Positions 6,278-51,335 of a DNA stretch of 64,000 bases are shown here, one piece after another. The stretch covers positions 11,036,001 through 11,100,000 of the forward strand of contig OX597820.1 in the NCBI GenBank assembly GCA_951406725.2, given 5' to 3'. Under the pieces are notes generated by a model that saw only the letters and a list, made by a program, of their open reading frames with translations, made no database searches and had not been told where the DNA came from. The position numbers were made by a program, and so were the translations under genes. Position 1 is the first letter of the stretch; each line of letters opens with the position of its first letter. Origin of the DNA: Octopus vulgaris. Its lineage: Eukaryota.

Positions 6278-7031
6278 TATATACTAAGGCCTTCCATAGA
6301 GTTTCTTTCGACCAAATTCACACTCAAGTCTGTGGTCGGCCCAAGGTTAAAGTAGAAGAATGCTTCGCATTGGGACCGAACTCGAAATCACGTGGTTGTA
6401 AAGCGATCTTCTTAACCATGCAGCCACGGTTAAGCCTACGTATAAAGCTTTTTTTCCTTGCCGCATGCACAAGAGATTTTTCATCCGACATTCATATATC
6501 ACAGGTCTTAAATCAAGAACACAATATACCAAAGCAACATTTCAGTTAAATATTTAGCTTTATATTGTCTGTGTCTTTACTATTCCTCTGTTTTACTGCC
6601 ATAACATTAACAGCTATCGATTTTAAGAGCTTTCACGACGGTGATATTATCACGTAAATCGGTGACCGAATGGCATTAGAGGCAAATTTCCGGGCCATGC
6701 TGGTTAATTAGGCACAGATCCAAATTTGGTATGCTCACGTGAAGAGGTTTTTAATGTTAATTCCCTTTCTAATTAATTTCAGTAATACCCTTGCTCACTT
6801 TCCTCTGTCAGATACCATTTATCAACCTAACCTATTCAACCAGATTGCAGAGATAAAGGATGCAGCTCGTTATGTTATACAGTCACTCATCATAAAAGTT
6901 TTCATAAACTTTTTATATAATAACTATGATTATTTAAGAGCATCTCTTCTTCTGTTCTATATTTAAGAGATTAGGAATTATTTACATTATTTACATTATT
7001 TACATTTGACGGATATTTGTCTTAATCTTAT

Positions 7032-8508
7032 TTATTGTTAACACAACGTTTCGGCTGATATACCCTCCAGCCTTCATCAGGTGTCTTGGGAAATTTTCGA
7101 ACCTGGGGTCTCATTCCTTTGTTGTTAACATAACGTTTCGGTTGATATACCCTCCAGCCTTCATCAGGTGTCTTGGGGAAATTTCAAACCTGGGTTCTCA
7201 TTCCTTTGTTGTTAACACAACGTTTCGGCTGATATATCCTCCAGCCTTCATCAGGTGTCTTGGGGAAATTTCGAACCTGGGTTCTCATTCCTTTGTTTTT
7301 AACACAACGTTTCGGTTGATATACCCTCCAGCCTTCATCAGGTGTCTTGGGGAAATTTCAAACCTGGGTTCTCATTCCTTTGTTATTAACACAACGTTTC
7401 GGTTGATATACCCTCCAGCCTTCATCAGGTGTCTTGGGGAAATTTCAAACCTGGGTTCTCATTCCTTTGTTTTTAACACAACGTTTCAGTTGATATACCC
7501 TCCAGCCTTCATCAGGTGTCTTGGGGAAATTTCAAACCTGGGTTCTCATTCCTTTGTTGTTAACACAACGTTTCAGTTGATATACCCTCCAGCCTTCATC
7601 AGGTGTCTTGGGGAAATTTCAAACCTGGGTTCTCATTCCTTTGTTGTTAACACAACGTTTCGGTTGATATACCCTCCAGCCTTCATCAGGTGTCTTGGGG
7701 AAATTTCAAACCTGGGTTCTCATTCCTTTGTTGTTAACAAAACGTTTCGGTTGATACACCCTCCAGCCTTCATCAGGTGTCTTGGGGAAATTTCAAACCT
7801 GGGTTCTCATTCCTTTGTTATTAACACAACGTTTCGGTTGATATACCCTCCAGCCTTCATCAGGTGTCTTGGGGAAATTTCAAACCTGGTTCTCATTCCT
7901 TTGTTGTTAACAAAACGTTTCGGTTGATATACCCTCCAGCCTTCATCAGGTGTCTTGGGGAAATTTCAAACCTGGGTTCTCATTCCTTTGTTGTTAACAA
8001 AACGTTTCGGTTGATATACCCTCCAGCCTTCATCAGGTGTCTTGGGGAAATTTCAAACCTGGGTTCTCATTCCTTTGTTGTTAACAAAACGTTTCGGTTG
8101 ATATACCCTCCAGCCTTCATCAGGTGTCTTGGGGAAATTTCAAACCTGGTTTCTCATTCCTTTGTTATTAACACAACGTTTCGGATGATATACCCTCCAG
8201 CCTTCATCAGGTGTCTTGGGGAAATTTCAAACCTGGTTTCTCATTCCTTTGTTGTTAACAAAACGTTTCGGTTGATATACCCTCCAGCCTTCATCAGGTG
8301 TCTTGGGGAAATTTCAAACCTGGGTTCTCATTCCTTTGTTGTTAACACAACGTTTCGGTTGATATACCCTCCAGCCTTCATCAGGTGTCTTGGCGAAATT
8401 TCGAACCTGCTTTCCCATTCCTTTGTTGTTAACAAAACGTTTCGGCTGATACGCCCTCCAGCCTTCATCAGATTTCTTAGGGAAATTTCGAACCTGGGTT
8501 CTCATTCC
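7032..8508. repeat. 87-bp tandem repeat, 17 copies
   Basis: TCATCAG recurs at 7074, 7161, ... 7857, then 7943 (1-bp deletion), ... 8465. Units are near-identical. Confidence 0.97.
7040..7085 (-). ncRNA. Minimal type I hammerhead ribozyme (intact copy 1 of the array)
   Basis: Minus strand reads GACAC-CUGAUGA-A-GGCUG(gaggguauau)CAGCC-GAAACGUU^GUGUU. Stem I is GACAC/GUGUU, stem II is GGCUG/CAGCC, and stem III is the palindrome ACGU. Confidence 0.8.
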
Positions 8509-8512
8509 CCAA

Positions 8513-8558
8513 GACACCTGATGAAGGCTGGAGGGTATATCAGCCGAAACATTGTGTT
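8513..8558 (+). ncRNA. Inverted hammerhead copy (stem III mutated)
   Basis: GACAC CTGATGA A GGCTG..CAGCC GAAAC ATT GTGTT. A G-to-A change breaks the ACGU palindrome. Confidence 0.65.
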
Positions 8559-9290
8559 AACAACAAACAAGATGAGGACAAATATCCGTCAAATGTAAAT
8601 AATGTAACATCTTTTCTGTGCTCAATGTATCCGTAACGAAGTTCTCTACGGTCTCTGCATCTATGGCGTTGTACTTATTCTACCATAATTCTACCTCTTA
8701 CTAATTGAAGTGTGAAGATGCCTGGTCTTGTGGTTAAGGTGTTGCACTAACAGTCACAGAATCGTGGTTTCGATTCCCAGACCCGGTGGTGTATATTGTG
8801 TTCTTGGACATAAGTCATCATTTCACGCTGCTCCAGTCCACTCAGTCGTAACTGAATTCCATCAATAGCTGAGAAGTTAACCCGGCGACACACGGACAGG
8901 TGTTTTATTCAGGTTGTGAGAGTGTCGTAACATCAGTTATTTACACGATACAGAAAGCTTTATGAATCTTTGAGTTCATGACAGATCTTTGTTTGGGGTA
9001 ACTTATTTCCTATTGCCGAGAGAAGTCTCCACAGCCGGCCCAAACTAAAGTAGGCTTGCTTCAATTATTTTACACATAACATAACGTGCACATGATTAAG
9101 GGTGGGATGTGTATCGGGTTTTCTTGTTTTTTCCTCCAGTACGAATTCGTACCTATTTCCCATCTAATTATGCTGAAGAGTAAAGAGCTAATTTCTTTGC
9201 CCCCCGACAATATCAAACATCAATGCGTTGCATTCTAACTACAATGCATTCTGACTGCAATTGTGCATCACATATAACCTGATGTATAAG

Positions 9291-25438: not shown

Positions 25439-25852
25439 GGCGTCGAGCTGGCAGAAACTTTAGCACGTCGGGCGAAATGCTTAGCGGTATTTCGTCTGCC
25501 GCTACCTTCCGAGTTCAAATTCCGCCGAGGTTGACTTTGCCTTTCATCCTTTCGGTGTCGATTAAATAAGTACCAGTTAAGCACTGGAGTCGATATAATC
25601 GACTTAATCCGTTTGTCTGCCCTTGTTTGTCCTCTCTGTGTTTAGCCCCTTGTGAGTAGTAAAGAAATAGGTATTTTGTCTGCCATTACGTTCTGGGTTC
25701 AAATTCCGCCGAGGTCGACTTTGCCTTTTTTCCTTTTGTGGTCGATTAAATAAGTACCAGTTACGCACTGGGGTCGATATAATCGACTTAATCCGTTTGT
25801 CTGTCCTTGCTTGTTCCCTCTGTGTTTAGCCCCTTGTGGGTAGTAAGGAAAT
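25439..25852 (+). mobile_element. SINE family B, dimeric
   Basis: Head followed by two bodies joined at AAAGAAATA|GGTATTT. Confidence 0.8.
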
Positions 25853-30258: not shown

Positions 30259-30488
30259 ATCCTTTCTATTATAGGTACAAGACCTGAAATGTTGTGTGAG
30301 GGGGATATTCGATTACATCGACCCCAGGGGTCAACTTGTACTTATTTTATCAGCCCTGAAAGAATGAAAGGCAAAGTAGACCTCGGCGGAATTTGAACTC
30401 AGAACGTAACGGTAGACGAAATACCTCTTTCTTTACTACCCACAAGGAGCTACACACAGAAGGGACAAAGAGAGACAAACGGATTAAG
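30259..30488 (-). mobile_element. SINE family B remnant truncated by the purine tract
   Basis: GAAAGGCAAAGTAGACCTCGGCGGAATTTGAACTCAGAAC and the dimer junction. It ends at GGATTAAG, where the tract begins. Confidence 0.7.
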
Positions 30489-33400
30489 GAGAGAAAAAAG
30501 AAGAGACAAAAGGAGAACAAAAAAGGAAAGCAAAAAAAGGAGAGCAAAGAAGGAGAACAAAAAAAGGAGAGAAAAGCAGAGAAAAGAAGGAGAGCAAAAA
30601 AGGAGAGAAAAAAAAGAATAAAGGAGAGAAAAAAGAAGACAAGAAAGGAGAGAAAAAAGGAAAGAAGAAAGGAAGAGTAAAAAAGAGAAAAAAAGGAGAG
30701 AAAAGGGAGAGCAACAAAAGAAGAGCAAAAGGAGTGACAAAAGGAGATAAAAAAGAAGAGTAGAAAGGGAGAGACAAAAGGAGAGCAATAAAAATAGAGC
30801 AAAAAAAGAGCAAGGAAGGAGAGCAAAAAAACAAGAGAAAAAAGGGGAGCAAAAAGGGAGACAGAAAAGGAGAGCAACAAAAGGAGGGCAACAAAGCAAG
30901 AAAGGAGAGCAAAAAGGAGAGGAAAATGTGAAGAAAAAAGAGGAGAGAAGAAAGGAGAGAAGAATGGGGAGAAAAAAAGAGAGCAAAAAATGACAGGATG
31001 GAGAGAAAAAAGGAGAGCAAATAAAACGGGAAAAAAGGAGAGCAACAAAAAGGAGAGAAAAAGGGAGAGAAGAAAGTAGAGAAGAAAGAGAAAAAAGCAA
31101 GGAAGGAGAGAAAAATGGAGACCAAGGATGGAGAGAAAAGAACGAGAGGAAAATAGAGAGCAAAAATGGAGTAGAAAAAGCAGAGAAAAGGAGAGCAAAA
31201 CAGGAGAGGAGCAAAAAAGGAGAGAAACGGAGAAGAAAGGAGATAAAAAAGGAGAGAGAAAAAGGAGAAAAAAAGGAGAAAAAAAAGGAGGGCAACAAAA
31301 GAAGAACAAATAAAGGGGGCAAAAGGAGAGACAAAAGGAGATAAAAAAGGAGAGTAGCAAAGGGAGAGCAAAAAGAAGAAAAAAAGAGAGAAGAAAAAGG
31401 AGAAAAGGAGAGCAAAGAAAGAGATGAAAGAAGAGCAAAAAAGAGAAGAAAGGAGAGAAGAAAGGAAGAGAAAAAGGGAGAGCAAGGAAGGAGAGACAAA
31501 AAGGATGGAAAAAAGGAGAGCAAGGAAGAAGAGCAAAAATGGAAAGATAAAGGAGATAAGAAAGGAGAGAGGGAGAAGAAAGGAGAAAAAAGGAGGGAAA
31601 AGGAGAAAAGAAAGAGAAGAAAGGCAGTGCAAAAAAGGAGAGTAAGACAGGGGAGAGAAAATGAGATATGAAAGGGAGAGAAAAAAGCCAGCAAAAAAGA
31701 AGAGCAAAGAAAGAGAGAGAAAGGCGAGAAAAAACGAGACAAAGAGAGCAAAAATGGAGAGAAGAAAAGGAGAGCAAGGAAGGAGGGCAAACTAGCAGAA
31801 AAAATAAAGAGAAGAATGGGGAGCAAAAAAGGAGAGAAAAAAGGAGGGAAGAAAGGAGATGAGAAGATGGAGAGAAAAGGAGAGCAACGAAGGAGAGAAG
31901 ATAGGAAAGAAGAAAGGGAGAGTAAGGAAGGATATAAAAAAAGGCGAGAAAAGAGAACAAAAGGAGAGCAAAATGGAGAGCAAAACAAAGGAAAAAATAG
32001 AGAGAAAAGGAGAGCAACAACGGAGGGCAAAACAGGAGAGAAAAGGAGAGCAAAGAAGGAGAGAAAGTACCGAAAAAGGAGAGCAAAAAAGGAATTCATG
32101 AAAGGAGAGCAAAAAGGGAGCAAGGAAGAAGAGAAGAAAGAGAAAAAAGGAAGGAAGGAAAGCAAAAAGCAGAAAAAATGAGAAAGGGAAAGAGAAAGAA
32201 AGGGAAAGAAAGAAGGAGAGCAAGAATGGAGAGCAAGTAAGGGAAGAAAGAGGTGAGAAGAAAGGGAGAGAAAAATGGAGAGCAGGGAAGGAATGAAGAA
32301 AGGAGAGAAAAAAGAAAAGAAAGGAGAGAAAAAAGAAAAGAGAGCAACAAAAGGAGATAAGAAACGAGAGAGAAAAGGAAGAGAAAAAGGAGATCAAGAA
32401 AGGAGATAGGAAAGGAGAAGAAAGGCAAAGAAAAAAGGGGAGATGAAAGGGAGAGAAAAAAGATCAAAAGAGACAAAAAAGGAGAGAAAAAGGAGAGCAT
32501 GGAAGGAGAGCAAAAAGGAGAGCATGGAAGGTGAGCAAAAAGGAGAGCATGGAAAAAGAGCAATATAGGAGAGAAAAAGAGCAAAAATGGAGGTTGAAAA
32601 TGAGCGAAGAGGGGACAGAAGAAAGGAGAGAAAAAAACGGAGAAAAAAGAGAGAAAGGGGAGAGCAAGATAGAAGAGCAAAAAGGAGAGCATAAAAGGAG
32701 AGCAAAAAGGAGAGAAGAAAGGAGAGAAAAGGAAACAAAAAAGGAGAGCAACGAAGGAGATCAATAAAGGAGAGTAAAAAGGAGAAAAGAAGGGAGAGCA
32801 ACAGAAGGAGAGACAAAAATGATAGCAAAAAAAGGAGAATAAGTAGAAAGGAGAGAAGAAAAGAGAGCAACAAAAGGAGACCAAAATAGTAAAATAGTAA
32901 AGAATGGAAAGAAAGGGAGGTTAAAAAGGGAGAGCAAAACTTGGGAGAAAAAGGAGAAAAGAAAGGACGGAAGAAAGGGATAGAAAAACGAGAAGAAAGG
33001 AGAGTAGAAAGGGAATGAATAAAAGTAGAGCAAGAAAGGAAATCAAAAAAGGAGATAAAAAAGCAGAGAAGGAGAGAAAAGGAGATAAGAAAGAAAAGAA
33101 AGTAGAGAAAATGGAGAGCAAAAAGGAGAGAGAAAAGGAGAGTAACAAAAGGAGAGCAGAAAGGAGAGTACAACAGAGAGTAAAACGGAGAGCAGGAAGG
33201 AGAGCAATAAAAGGAAAGAAAGGAGAGCAACAAAATGAGTCCAAAAAAGGAAATAAGGGTAAGTCAAAAAAGGAGAGCAAAGATGGAGAGAAAAAAGGAA
33301 AAAAGAAAGGAGAGCAATAAAGGAGAGCAACAATAGAAGAGCAAAAAAGGAAAGCAAGGAAGGAGAGATGAAAGGAGAGAAAAAAGAAGAGAAGAAAGGA

Positions 33401-33885
33401 AACAAAAAAGGAGAGCAACAAATGGAAATAAGAAAGAAAAGGTGAGAAGGGAAATGAAAGGGAGAGAAAAATGAGCAAATAAAGGAGAGAAAAAAGAAGA
33501 GAAAACAGGAGAGCAAAAAATGAGAGAGGATAGGAGAGAATGGGAGAGCAAGAAAGGAGAGTAAAAAGGAGAGCAAAAACGGAGAGTAAAAATAGAGCAG
33601 AAAGGAGAGAAAAGAAGGGAGAGAAAAGGAGTTCAAGAAGGAGAGCAAAAAAGGGAGAGTATAAAAGAGAGAAAAGGAGAGCAACAAAAGGAGAGTAAGG
33701 AAGGAGAGCATAAAATAAGAGAGAAAAGAAGAGATGAAAGGGAGAGAGAAAAAAGAGAGCAAAAAAGGAGTGCAAAATGAGAGAAAAAAGGGAGAGAAAA
33801 AAGGATAGCAAAAGGGAGAGCAAGGAACGAGAGCAAAAAAGGAGAGAATAAGAGAAGAAGGGAGAGAAAAAAGGGGAGACAAGAT
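30489..33885. repeat. 3.4-kb strand-asymmetric purine-rich degenerate minisatellite (AAAAGGAGAG(C/A)A)
   Basis: Plus strand is almost entirely A/G, with GGAGAG recurring at roughly 11-14 bp spacing. Confidence 0.9.
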
Positions 33886-38752: not shown

Positions 38753-39398
38753 GGCGGCGAGCTGGCAGAAACGTTAGCACGCCGGGCGAAATGCTTAGCG
38801 GTATTTCGTCTGCCGATACGTTCTGAGTTCAAATTCCGCCGAGGTCGACTTTGCTTCTCATCCTTTCGGGGTCGATTAAATAAGTACCAGTTACGCACTG
38901 GGGTCGATATAATCATCTTAATCCGTTTGTTTGTCTTCTCTGTGTTTAGCCCCTTCTGGGTAGTAAAGAAATAGGTATTTCGTCTGTCTTTATGTTCTGA
39001 GTTCAAATTCCGCCGAGGTCGACTTTGCTTCTCATCCTTTCGGGTCGATTAAATAAGTACCAGTTACGCACTGGGGTCGATATAATCATCTTAATCCGTT
39101 TGTTTGTCTTCTCTGTGTTTAGCCCCTTCTGGGTAGTAAAGAAATAGGTATTTCGTCTGTCTTTATGTTCTGAGTTCAAATTCCGCCGAGGTCGACTTTG
39201 CTTCTCATCCTTTCGGGGTCGATTAAATAAGTACCAGTTACGCACTGGGGTCGATATAATCATCTTAATCCGTTTGTTTGTCTTCTCTGTGTTTAGCCCC
39301 TTCTGGGTAGTAAAGAAATAGGTATTTCGTCTGTCTTTATGTTCTGAGTTCAAATTCCGCTGAGGTCGACTTTGCCTTTCATCCTATCGGGGTTCATT
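38753..39398 (+). mobile_element. SINE family B with 3.5 tandem 174-bp bodies
   Basis: GGTATTTCGTCTG occurs at 38800, 38974, 39147 and 39321. Confidence 0.9.
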
Positions 39399-50208: not shown

Positions 50209-50614
50209 GTGTATATATATATATATATGTGTGTGTGTGTACAAAAATACAAACTGGGACAAGAACGCAAAACATTTAGAAGACGATGTAAAAAAACACG
50301 GACGGGACATTCGAAGCCTTCAATCTTCAGTAAAGAAAATAGAAAGATAATTAATAAATTATTATTTATTAATTAAAAAATTGACAAACATCTCTTCCAG
50401 CTGTTTCATTTGAAGACCTTCAGAAAGTTAATTAATGAAATTGACAATTATTTGAAAGTCGAATCTCGACAGAGTAGTTTAAGATAAACAAAATAGGTGT
50501 TCAATTCCTGCAAGTTAGCCCCAGGAGACACCGTCTCCAGCTGGTTATACGACACGATCTGTGTCCTTGTATTTTACGAACAAGGGAATCTAGCACCCCA
50601 ACTCAGCTCAAAAC

Positions 50615-51170
50615 AATATCGTAAGTTCCTTTTAAAATTACAGAATCTGCAAAGGGTACAGATGGGAAAGCATTGCCATTACGTAAGAGAACAGTCTTAG
50701 TACTGTACAGAGACGTATCGATAAACAATCTGAAGTCTTCTGGGTCGTAGACAATATTAAGGTCATTAAACAATCCCTGGATATTGTTGCAAAAAACACA
50801 AGTTGTTCTCCACTGAAAATGATGCTGCAAATTATCAGAACAGGCTCTAAATTTCGTAATCCTTACATCCTTTTCTAGTAAATTTTTCCATTGAAGCCGG
50901 GAGGCGAGTGATTCACTTTGCTGTTTTGTTAAACCTATTTCTCGTATTAAATCGTTTAATTCAGGCCGGTTAAGAAACTTTGGCTCCGATAATGTTTGTG
51001 CTTGTTCAAATGAGTCGTTAAATTTTGCGTCTGTGCCATCTGAGTCTTCTAAATTGGCTGATATTTGCATTTCTGAGGGTGGTTCGAGAACTGGATATCT
51101 GCAGAATGGGTCCCAGTACGCATAACTGATCTGAGGCTTGGATACACAATCGATTTTCCTCTTTTCTTGA
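50615..51170 (-). pseudogene. DNA transposase fragment, probably Chapaev3-like (CMC/Transib-related)
   Basis: ELNDLIREIGLTKQQSESLASRL..FCNNIQGL..YDPEDFRLFIDTS..KTVLLRNGN.FPSVP, with IVYPSLRSVMR..H upstream. The superfamily assignment is from recalled motifs. Confidence 0.6.
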
Positions 51171-51335
51171 ACAAAAAAGTTGAATTATAAACTTCAATAT
51201 TACAGAGAATAAATTCGATACAAATTATAATATATAGGTATTATAATAGTATACTACAAATAAATCAATATGTTATATATACATATGTGTTATATAAACA
51301 CACACATATACATACATATATATACATATATATAG

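What the first reader, a model, noticed from the sequence alone, without database searches (positions are those of the whole stretch)
6954..8607. Array of 17 tandem minimal hammerhead ribozymes with an 87-nt monomer: a retrozyme-like locus
Seen: every 87-bp unit reads on the minus strand as GACAC-CUGAUGA-A-GGCUG..CA(G/A)CC-GAAACGUU^GUGUU. That is a full hammerhead core with stems I and II and a loopless palindromic stem III (ACGU). Established: such minimal type I hammerheads are typical of Penelope-like elements and tandem non-LTR retrozymes (newt satellite 2, Schistosoma Sm-alpha), and they cleave as dimers through the palindromic stem III. Inference: a tandem transcript supplies adjacent partners for double-hammerhead folding and could be cut into 87-nt monomers or circles. 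That is smaller than the retrozyme monomers I know of (hundreds of nt). The 29-aa repeat ORFs on the plus strand hide this signal.
Basis: partly seen in the sequence, partly recalled or inferred. Interest (0 to 1): 0.9.

Follow-up and report, generated by a model that had tools for sequence, protein, structure and literature searches.

The report
Jumping-gene remnant expanded into hammerhead array
Seventeen tandem 87-base copies of a self-cutting-RNA (hammerhead) motif sit inside one truncated insertion of a very common Penelope-like jumping gene, most copies have mispaired stems, and the array likely grew by ordinary DNA repeat expansion, so it looks like a known way such repeats are born rather than a new active RNA circle.

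Summary
The array is real: 17 units of 87 bp (7031-8508), each with the hammerhead core on the minus strand (0.02 expected by chance). Only 2 of 17 units have fully paired stems. The unit is a slice of the terminal repeat (pLTR) of a Penelope-like element (PLE); one 28-mer of its hammerhead occurs 2,795 times in the genome, nearly always singly. The locus has PLE insertion marks: inverted 5' arm, one-sided tail, probable 10-bp target duplication. The same unit junction occurs at four loci, each with its own target duplication: two dimers, this array, and a 15-copy array in which 0 of 15 units keep the catalytic core. Expansion therefore does not need a working ribozyme and most likely happened in DNA after insertion. 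No promoter motif, no RNA on the flank and no junction-bridging RNA piece were seen. This fits the published model of animal retrozymes as locally amplified pLTRs (51-972 bp units), so 87 nt is not exceptional. Copy number and cleavage are untested. The scan noted a ribozyme-free look-alike in another genome.

The parts
7031..8508 (-). Tandem array, 17 units of 87 bp (one of 86); each unit is a slice of the PLE pLTR holding one minimal type I hammerhead core and about the first 29 codons of the PLE reading frame
7040..7085 (-). Unit 17 hammerhead, fully paired stems I and II; predicted cut 7045/7044
7214..7259 (-). Unit 15 hammerhead, the only other fully paired unit; predicted cut 7219/7218
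6954..7030 (-). 3' end of the element including the roughly 34-bp PLE-type tail present at this end only; in a near-full-length copy (L219) this sequence runs on in frame into the PLE ORF
8504..8607 (+). Inverted, 5'-truncated second pLTR copy with a damaged hammerhead (core at 8518, stem III broken), joined to the array through a shared GGAA; predicted to pair with an array unit in a long hairpin if transcribed
8608..8617 (-). Probable target-site duplication, upstream copy (10 bp, 9 of 10 identical to the other copy)
6941..6950 (-). Probable target-site duplication, downstream copy; a contig of run X4 (organism B) fits the flank up to 6950 and then continues with other letters
63848..63958 (-). 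Separate truncated copy of the same pLTR family

Best explanation
This is a 5'-truncated insertion of a high-copy Penelope-like retroelement whose hammerhead-bearing 87-bp pLTR slice was likely present as a dimer at insertion and then likely expanded to 17 copies in the DNA, by slippage or unequal exchange, independently of ribozyme activity. Shown: unit identity with the PLE pLTR, the insertion marks, the same junction at three other loci with their own target duplications, and a sister array of catalytically dead units. Inferred: the PLE RT/endonuclease made the insertion by priming on both strands (inverted arm, tail); three loci on contig C7 descend from one dimer-bearing template; the array is now mostly silent, and a read-through RNA would cleave weakly at best, near units 14-17.
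For: One 28-mer of the hammerhead occurs 2,795 times genome-wide. Among 60 unselected copies on C1, 33 have an inverted arm, 4 adjoin the ORF end and 1 has a second forward hammerhead. In 26 of 30 loci picked by the ORF 3' end, the hammerhead-bearing segment follows downstream; the ORF has RVT_1 (E 1e-9) and its C-terminal part is nearest to clusters with HTH_animal/GIY-YIG members (score 0.97; GIY-YIG on 19-24% of members). Junction searches found four loci: window, L072, L089, L133; target duplications of 13, 14 and 14 bp flank the other three. Window, L072 and L089 share a G-to-T change at position 1.1 of unit 1 (28 of 29 single copies have G) and an A-to-G change at the start of unit 2. 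L072 has 15 copies of an 83-bp unit, 0 of 15 with a full core, inner units differing by 0.94 nt on average while 13-16 differences from the family's commonest letters. In the window 13 inner units share each of two derived changes, one of which breaks stem II; differences grow with distance (Mantel r 0.41, P 0.0002). No adjacent pair can form a double hammerhead without at least one missing pair.
Against: 0 of 23 distinct variants in the array fall on the 14 core and stem III positions (P 0.018 under a uniform model, one post hoc test), although the stem III CpG is the fastest-changing site in single copies; this hints at constraint. The distance effect is not significant among inner units alone (P 0.09). 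L133 has the same junction but its inverted arm lacks it and its two units share a private change, which suggests the junction can recur, weakening the single-source step. RNA evidence is thin: the raw-read run is from organism B, which probably lacks the insertion, only 6% of it was read, and 54,781 contig pieces were not shown.
Confidence: 0.75

Rival explanations
1. Active retrozyme: the array is transcribed by read-through, neighbouring units fold into double hammerheads and release 87-nt monomers or circles that the PLE machinery can re-insert.
For: All 17 cores intact; 0 of 23 variants in core or stem III; a dimer with this junction has reached several loci; the autonomous partner is abundant.
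Against: 2 of 17 units fully paired; 7 of 23 variants hit stems I and II, 6 of them breaking pairs, none compensatory; no A or B box motif in the element; zero RNA depth on the unique flank in both RNA sets and no pile-up of read ends; the exact array junction pattern occurs only at this locus; 8 of 9 predicted Xenopus dimers did not cleave in vitro (10.64898/2026.07.22.740005).
Confidence: 0.1
2. The multimer was made during insertion: the PLE reverse transcriptase repeatedly jumped back 87 nt (an imperfect 8-nt repeat brackets the unit) or rolled round a small circle, and units diverged afterwards.
For: The array starts at the same nucleotide as each unit, next to the inversion junction; the same junction is seen at four loci; partial tandems are typical of PLEs (PMC8557442 passages) and other independent dimers exist (L218, 97 nt).
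Against: Inner units share derived changes absent from the end units, and neighbouring units share private changes; L072 inner units are nearly identical while its end units are decayed. Both point to expansion after insertion.
Confidence: 0.1
3. The insertion is real but the 17 copies are inflated by assembly.
For: The best indexed run holds only 0.52 of the 66 sampled words of the array; no listed contig piece bridges a unit junction.
Against: Units differ in patterned ways (mean 2.5 nt among inner units); a second array with different variants exists; a contig of an independent sample (X2) runs from the unique flank 28 letters into the element (below the tool's 31-letter bridging rule).
Confidence: 0.05

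Closest known systems
Animal non-LTR retrozymes as non-autonomous derivatives of PLE pLTRs (bioRxiv 10.64898/2026.07.22.740005; parts 1-3 of 5 read, supplements not seen)
   Same: Tandem repeat with a type I hammerhead core in each unit, derived from a pLTR; unit length inside the reported 51-972 bp; the paper proposes local amplification of an inserted pLTR.
   Different: That survey covered 31 vertebrates, 3 insects and a coral; here the series single copy, dimer, 15-mer and 17-mer is seen in one genome, with a dead-core array as a control.
[quoted passage not shown]
   Same: No loop 3, palindromic positions 15.2-16.2, extra base between A9 and G10.1, 5-bp stem I; single or opposite-strand copies genome-wide; predicted to need dimers; low activity in vitro.
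   Different: Here 17 motifs lie 87 nt apart in one orientation, not about 3 kb apart in flanking pLTRs.
Expressed metazoan retrozymes of coral, mussel, axolotl (PMC7229834; passages and Discussion read)
   Same: Short tandem repeats with type I hammerheads; axolotl motifs need dimers.
   Different: Those are 170-400-nt, abundantly expressed as circles, with thousands of copies; here 87 nt, minimal motif, four junction loci, no expression seen.
Poseidon PLE of Anolis, PAc (PMC11167929; passages read)
   Same: Hammerhead overlapping the ORF start, RT initiating shortly into the ORF, optional 30-40-bp tail, both strands cut and extended; hammerhead cleavage not needed for insertion in vitro.
   Different: No tRNA mention in that paper's text (0 occurrences); this family's pLTR starts with a tRNA-like A/B-box segment.
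Schistosoma Sm-alpha SINE-like repeats (via review PMC6765202, passages read)
   Same: Pol III-type promoter followed by a hammerhead; resembles the parent pLTR of this family.
   Different: The array itself lacks the promoter-like head; Sm-alpha hammerheads are canonical and cleave.

Membership tests
Minimal type I hammerhead (PLE type) | Core CUGANGA...GAAA, U16.1, H17, palindromic 15.2-16.2 | tested here: met
   17 of 17 units
Minimal type I hammerhead (PLE type) | Paired stems I and II | tested here: inconclusive
   Met in 2 of 17 units, one or more mismatches in 15; 12 of 29 single family copies fully intact
Minimal type I hammerhead (PLE type) | Self-cleavage as a dimer | not testable with these tools
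   Folding puts the double-hammerhead 13-24 kcal/mol above the ensemble for all 16 adjacent pairs, but no active dimer was folded as a control
Penelope-like element remnant | Sequence belongs to the pLTR of an RT plus GIY-YIG element | tested here: met
   GIY-YIG rests on the Atlas lead and a recalled motif, Pfam gave no GIY-YIG hit
Penelope-like element remnant | Inverted 5'-truncated copy and one-sided 30-40-bp tail | tested here: met
   described in PMC8557442
Non-LTR retrozyme (sequence definition, 2026 preprint) | Tandem repeat with at least two consecutive units holding complete hammerhead motifs | tested here: inconclusive
   Met for the core (17 consecutive); no two consecutive units are fully paired; their rnabob descriptor was not run
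Non-LTR retrozyme (functional definition, PMC7229834) | Transcribed and processed to monomeric linear or circular RNA | tested here: inconclusive
   No flank RNA, no end pile-up, no listed junction-bridging piece; weak test
Non-LTR retrozyme (functional definition, PMC7229834) | Dispersed as a family of tandem copies | tested here: inconclusive
   Junction at four loci with separate target duplications, but the array's own derived unit is at one locus only

The most novel reading that the evidence does not exclude
A retrozyme caught at birth: a pLTR dimer became a mobile template, hopped to three sites on one chromosome, and at this site its 17 invariant cores are kept by selection and release 87-nt RNA circles, among the smallest self-processed circles in animals.
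Probability: 0.08. Interest if true: 0.65.

Novelty: new member of a known kind. Interest (0 to 1): 0.3.

Why it matters
It is an ordinary by-product of a known element class, but a clean natural series. Single pLTRs, dimers, a 17-mer with intact cores and a 15-mer with dead cores share one junction in one genome. That bears on whether animal retrozyme arrays arise by rolling-circle reverse transcription or by local DNA amplification, and here favours the latter. It also warns that a tandem of hammerhead cores is not by itself evidence of an active ribozyme repeat.

Tried and rejected
Rfam: nothing at gathering score in the window; only hairpin-driven miRNA hits at the inversion junction; hammerhead models did not match. 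tRNA identity of the pLTR head: ARAGORN 0 genes in 11 loci; Rfam tRNA 14.7 bits, E 3.7 in L009, nothing in L133, so only A/B-box motifs (recalled consensus) support it. Pfam found no GIY-YIG family in ORF fragments; solved structures gave only weak RT matches, best E 5e-5. My first reading, that the junction is unique to this locus, was overturned. The idea that the unit start is a truncation hot spot was not borne out in 60 unselected copies, whose 5' ends scatter. L015 begins near the junction but its upstream letters match another repeat, so it was not counted. Lunse et al. on dimer cleavage was not held and is known here only through its citation in PMC6765202. Paper searches listed no paper describing a hammerhead array or tRNA-like pLTR in an octopus; PMC13282606 has 0 occurrences of hammerhead or ribozyme in its main text (supplements not read, and its repeat library may contain this family). 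Repbase and Dfam could not be searched. Earlier scan notes: nothing by sequence or for this genome.

Full report
Observation. TRF finds a tandem at 7031-8508, period 87, 17.0 copies, 96% matches. On the minus strand each unit holds CUGANGA...GAAACGUH: 17 matches against 0.02 expected from shuffles. But only units 15 and 17 have all stem I and II pairs; 14 of 17 have a central stem II mismatch and 7 of 17 lack the pair next to the cut. Rfam does not detect the motif; the minimal motif is defined by descriptor in PMC4209133, whose features (no loop 3, extra base before stem II, G10.1-C11.1, palindromic 15.2-16.2) fit.

What the unit is. The window is G000:C7:11036001-11100000 in a 2.8-Gb genome of 227 contigs; I take it to be octopus-like from recall, not from a call. 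The array's 3' end matches a dispersed family (2,563 candidates, 40 scored, 92-94% identity), and one exact 28-mer of the hammerhead occurs 2,795 times. L005 showed coding sequence directly upstream. Searching with it gave 30 loci, in 26 of which the hammerhead-bearing segment follows the ORF stop after a tRNA-like head and an (AAT)n run. The ORF has an RT domain (RVT_1, E 1.2e-9) and a C-terminal part nearest to HTH_animal/GIY-YIG clusters (GIY-YIG on a minority of members). In L219 the element's tail continues in frame into the ORF's N-terminal region, so the 87-nt unit is about the first 29 codons on the minus strand, broken by a stop in most units. This is the layout of Penelope/Poseidon elements, where the hammerhead overlaps the ORF start and RT initiates just downstream (PMC11167929).

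Anatomy of the locus. Reading the minus strand: probable 10-bp target duplication (8617-8608), inverted pLTR arm (8607-8504), 17 units, 3' end with tail (7030-6954), second target copy (6950-6941, 9 of 10 identical). Inverted arms and one-sided tails are PLE insertion marks (PMC8557442); 33 of 60 unselected family copies have an inverted arm and 1 of 60 a second forward hammerhead. A contig of run X4 (organism B) fits the flank up to 6950, the edge of the proposed duplication, then continues for 377 letters that do not fit; I read this as an empty site but could not see the letters. A contig of X2 (organism A) runs from the flank 28 letters into the element.

Relatives with the same junction. 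Pattern searches, which scan the whole genome, found the junction at four loci: the window; L089 (C7, 0.46 Mb; same inverted arm junction, two units, 14-bp duplication); L072 (C7, 9.52 Mb; 15 units of 83 bp, 13-bp duplication); L133 (C9; two units in a full pLTR, 14-bp duplication). The three C7 loci share two derived changes in units 1 and 2, so I infer one dimer-bearing source and separate insertions. L133 may be an independent origin: its inverted arm lacks the junction and its units share a private change. L218 is an unrelated 97-nt dimer. Exact or near-exact patterns miss diverged loci, so four is a lower bound.

How the array grew. In L072, 0 of 15 units keep a full core, yet inner units differ by only 0.94 nt. 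An array can therefore grow from this dimer without a working ribozyme. In the window, 13 inner units share each of two derived changes absent from units 1, 15 and 17, one breaking stem II; neighbours share private changes; difference rises with distance over all 17 units (r 0.41, P 0.0002) though not significantly among inner units (P 0.09). This is the pattern of slippage or unequal exchange after insertion (established repeat biology; inferred here), and the scenario proposed in the 2026 preprint.

Could it still cleave? No adjacent pair forms a double hammerhead without a missing pair; the constrained fold lies 13-16 kcal/mol above the ensemble for pairs 14-15 to 16-17 and 18-24 for the rest, without a positive control. 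The element lacks the promoter-like head. Both RNA sets had zero depth on the unique flank, no pile-up of ends, and loose ends at the junction showed the ancestral neighbours; the test is weak because the raw reads come from organism B. Against my reading, none of 23 distinct variants hits the 14 core or stem III positions (P 0.018, post hoc; one of the 23 is a family polymorphism), while 7 hit stems I and II against 5.3 expected. Copy number is not confirmed: the best run holds 0.52 of 66 words.

Comparison and verdict. By sequence this is a non-LTR retrozyme-type repeat derived from a PLE pLTR; published units run 51-972 bp and up to 300 copies, and 8 of 9 tested dimers did not cleave. The expressed retrozymes of PMC7229834 are 170-400 nt with demonstrated circles, which is not shown here. 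My searches listed no description of this family's array, but repeat databases were not searchable. New member of a known kind; interest 0.3, mainly for the natural series with a dead-core control and for the tRNA-like head in the parent pLTR.

Noticed in passing
L047:1845-1915 and L158-L217 (family pLTR head): The parent pLTR begins with a tRNA-like segment bearing Pol III A- and B-box motifs (recalled consensus). Of 60 unselected copies 16 keep it; by eye 14 of these start within about 8 nt upstream of it and 2 adjoin the ORF end, suggesting an RNA start there and SINE-like spread of a hammerhead-bearing pLTR. ARAGORN found none and Rfam tRNA is below threshold. Not found described.
   Followed up: partly
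L072:1436-2789 (G000:C7 near 9.524 Mb): Sister array of 15 x 83-bp units with dead hammerhead cores inside a 13-bp target duplication.
   Followed up: yes
L089:1327-1670 (G000:C7 near 0.460 Mb): Two-unit relative lying in sense orientation just downstream of what looks like a pre-SET-domain exon with a GT donor (read by eye); could be transcribed within a pre-mRNA.
   Followed up: partly
G000:C7 0.46, 9.52 and 11.04 Mb: Three of four junction-bearing loci lie in the first 11 Mb of one contig, unexpected for dispersed retrotransposition; unexplained.
   Followed up: no
L218, L173, L132: Independent partial tandems of the same pLTR with other periods (97 nt in L218, 195 nt in L173).
   Followed up: partly
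window 30486-33879: 3.4-kb purine-rich degenerate tandem with strong strand skew.
   Followed up: no
window 25486-25852 and 38800-39393: Tandem copies (184 bp x2, 174 bp x3.4) of another dispersed repeat, so tandem growth of short repeats is not special to the hammerhead unit.
   Followed up: no
window 50603-51184: 193-aa minus-strand frame that is not a simple repeat, probably a transposon fragment.
   Followed up: no
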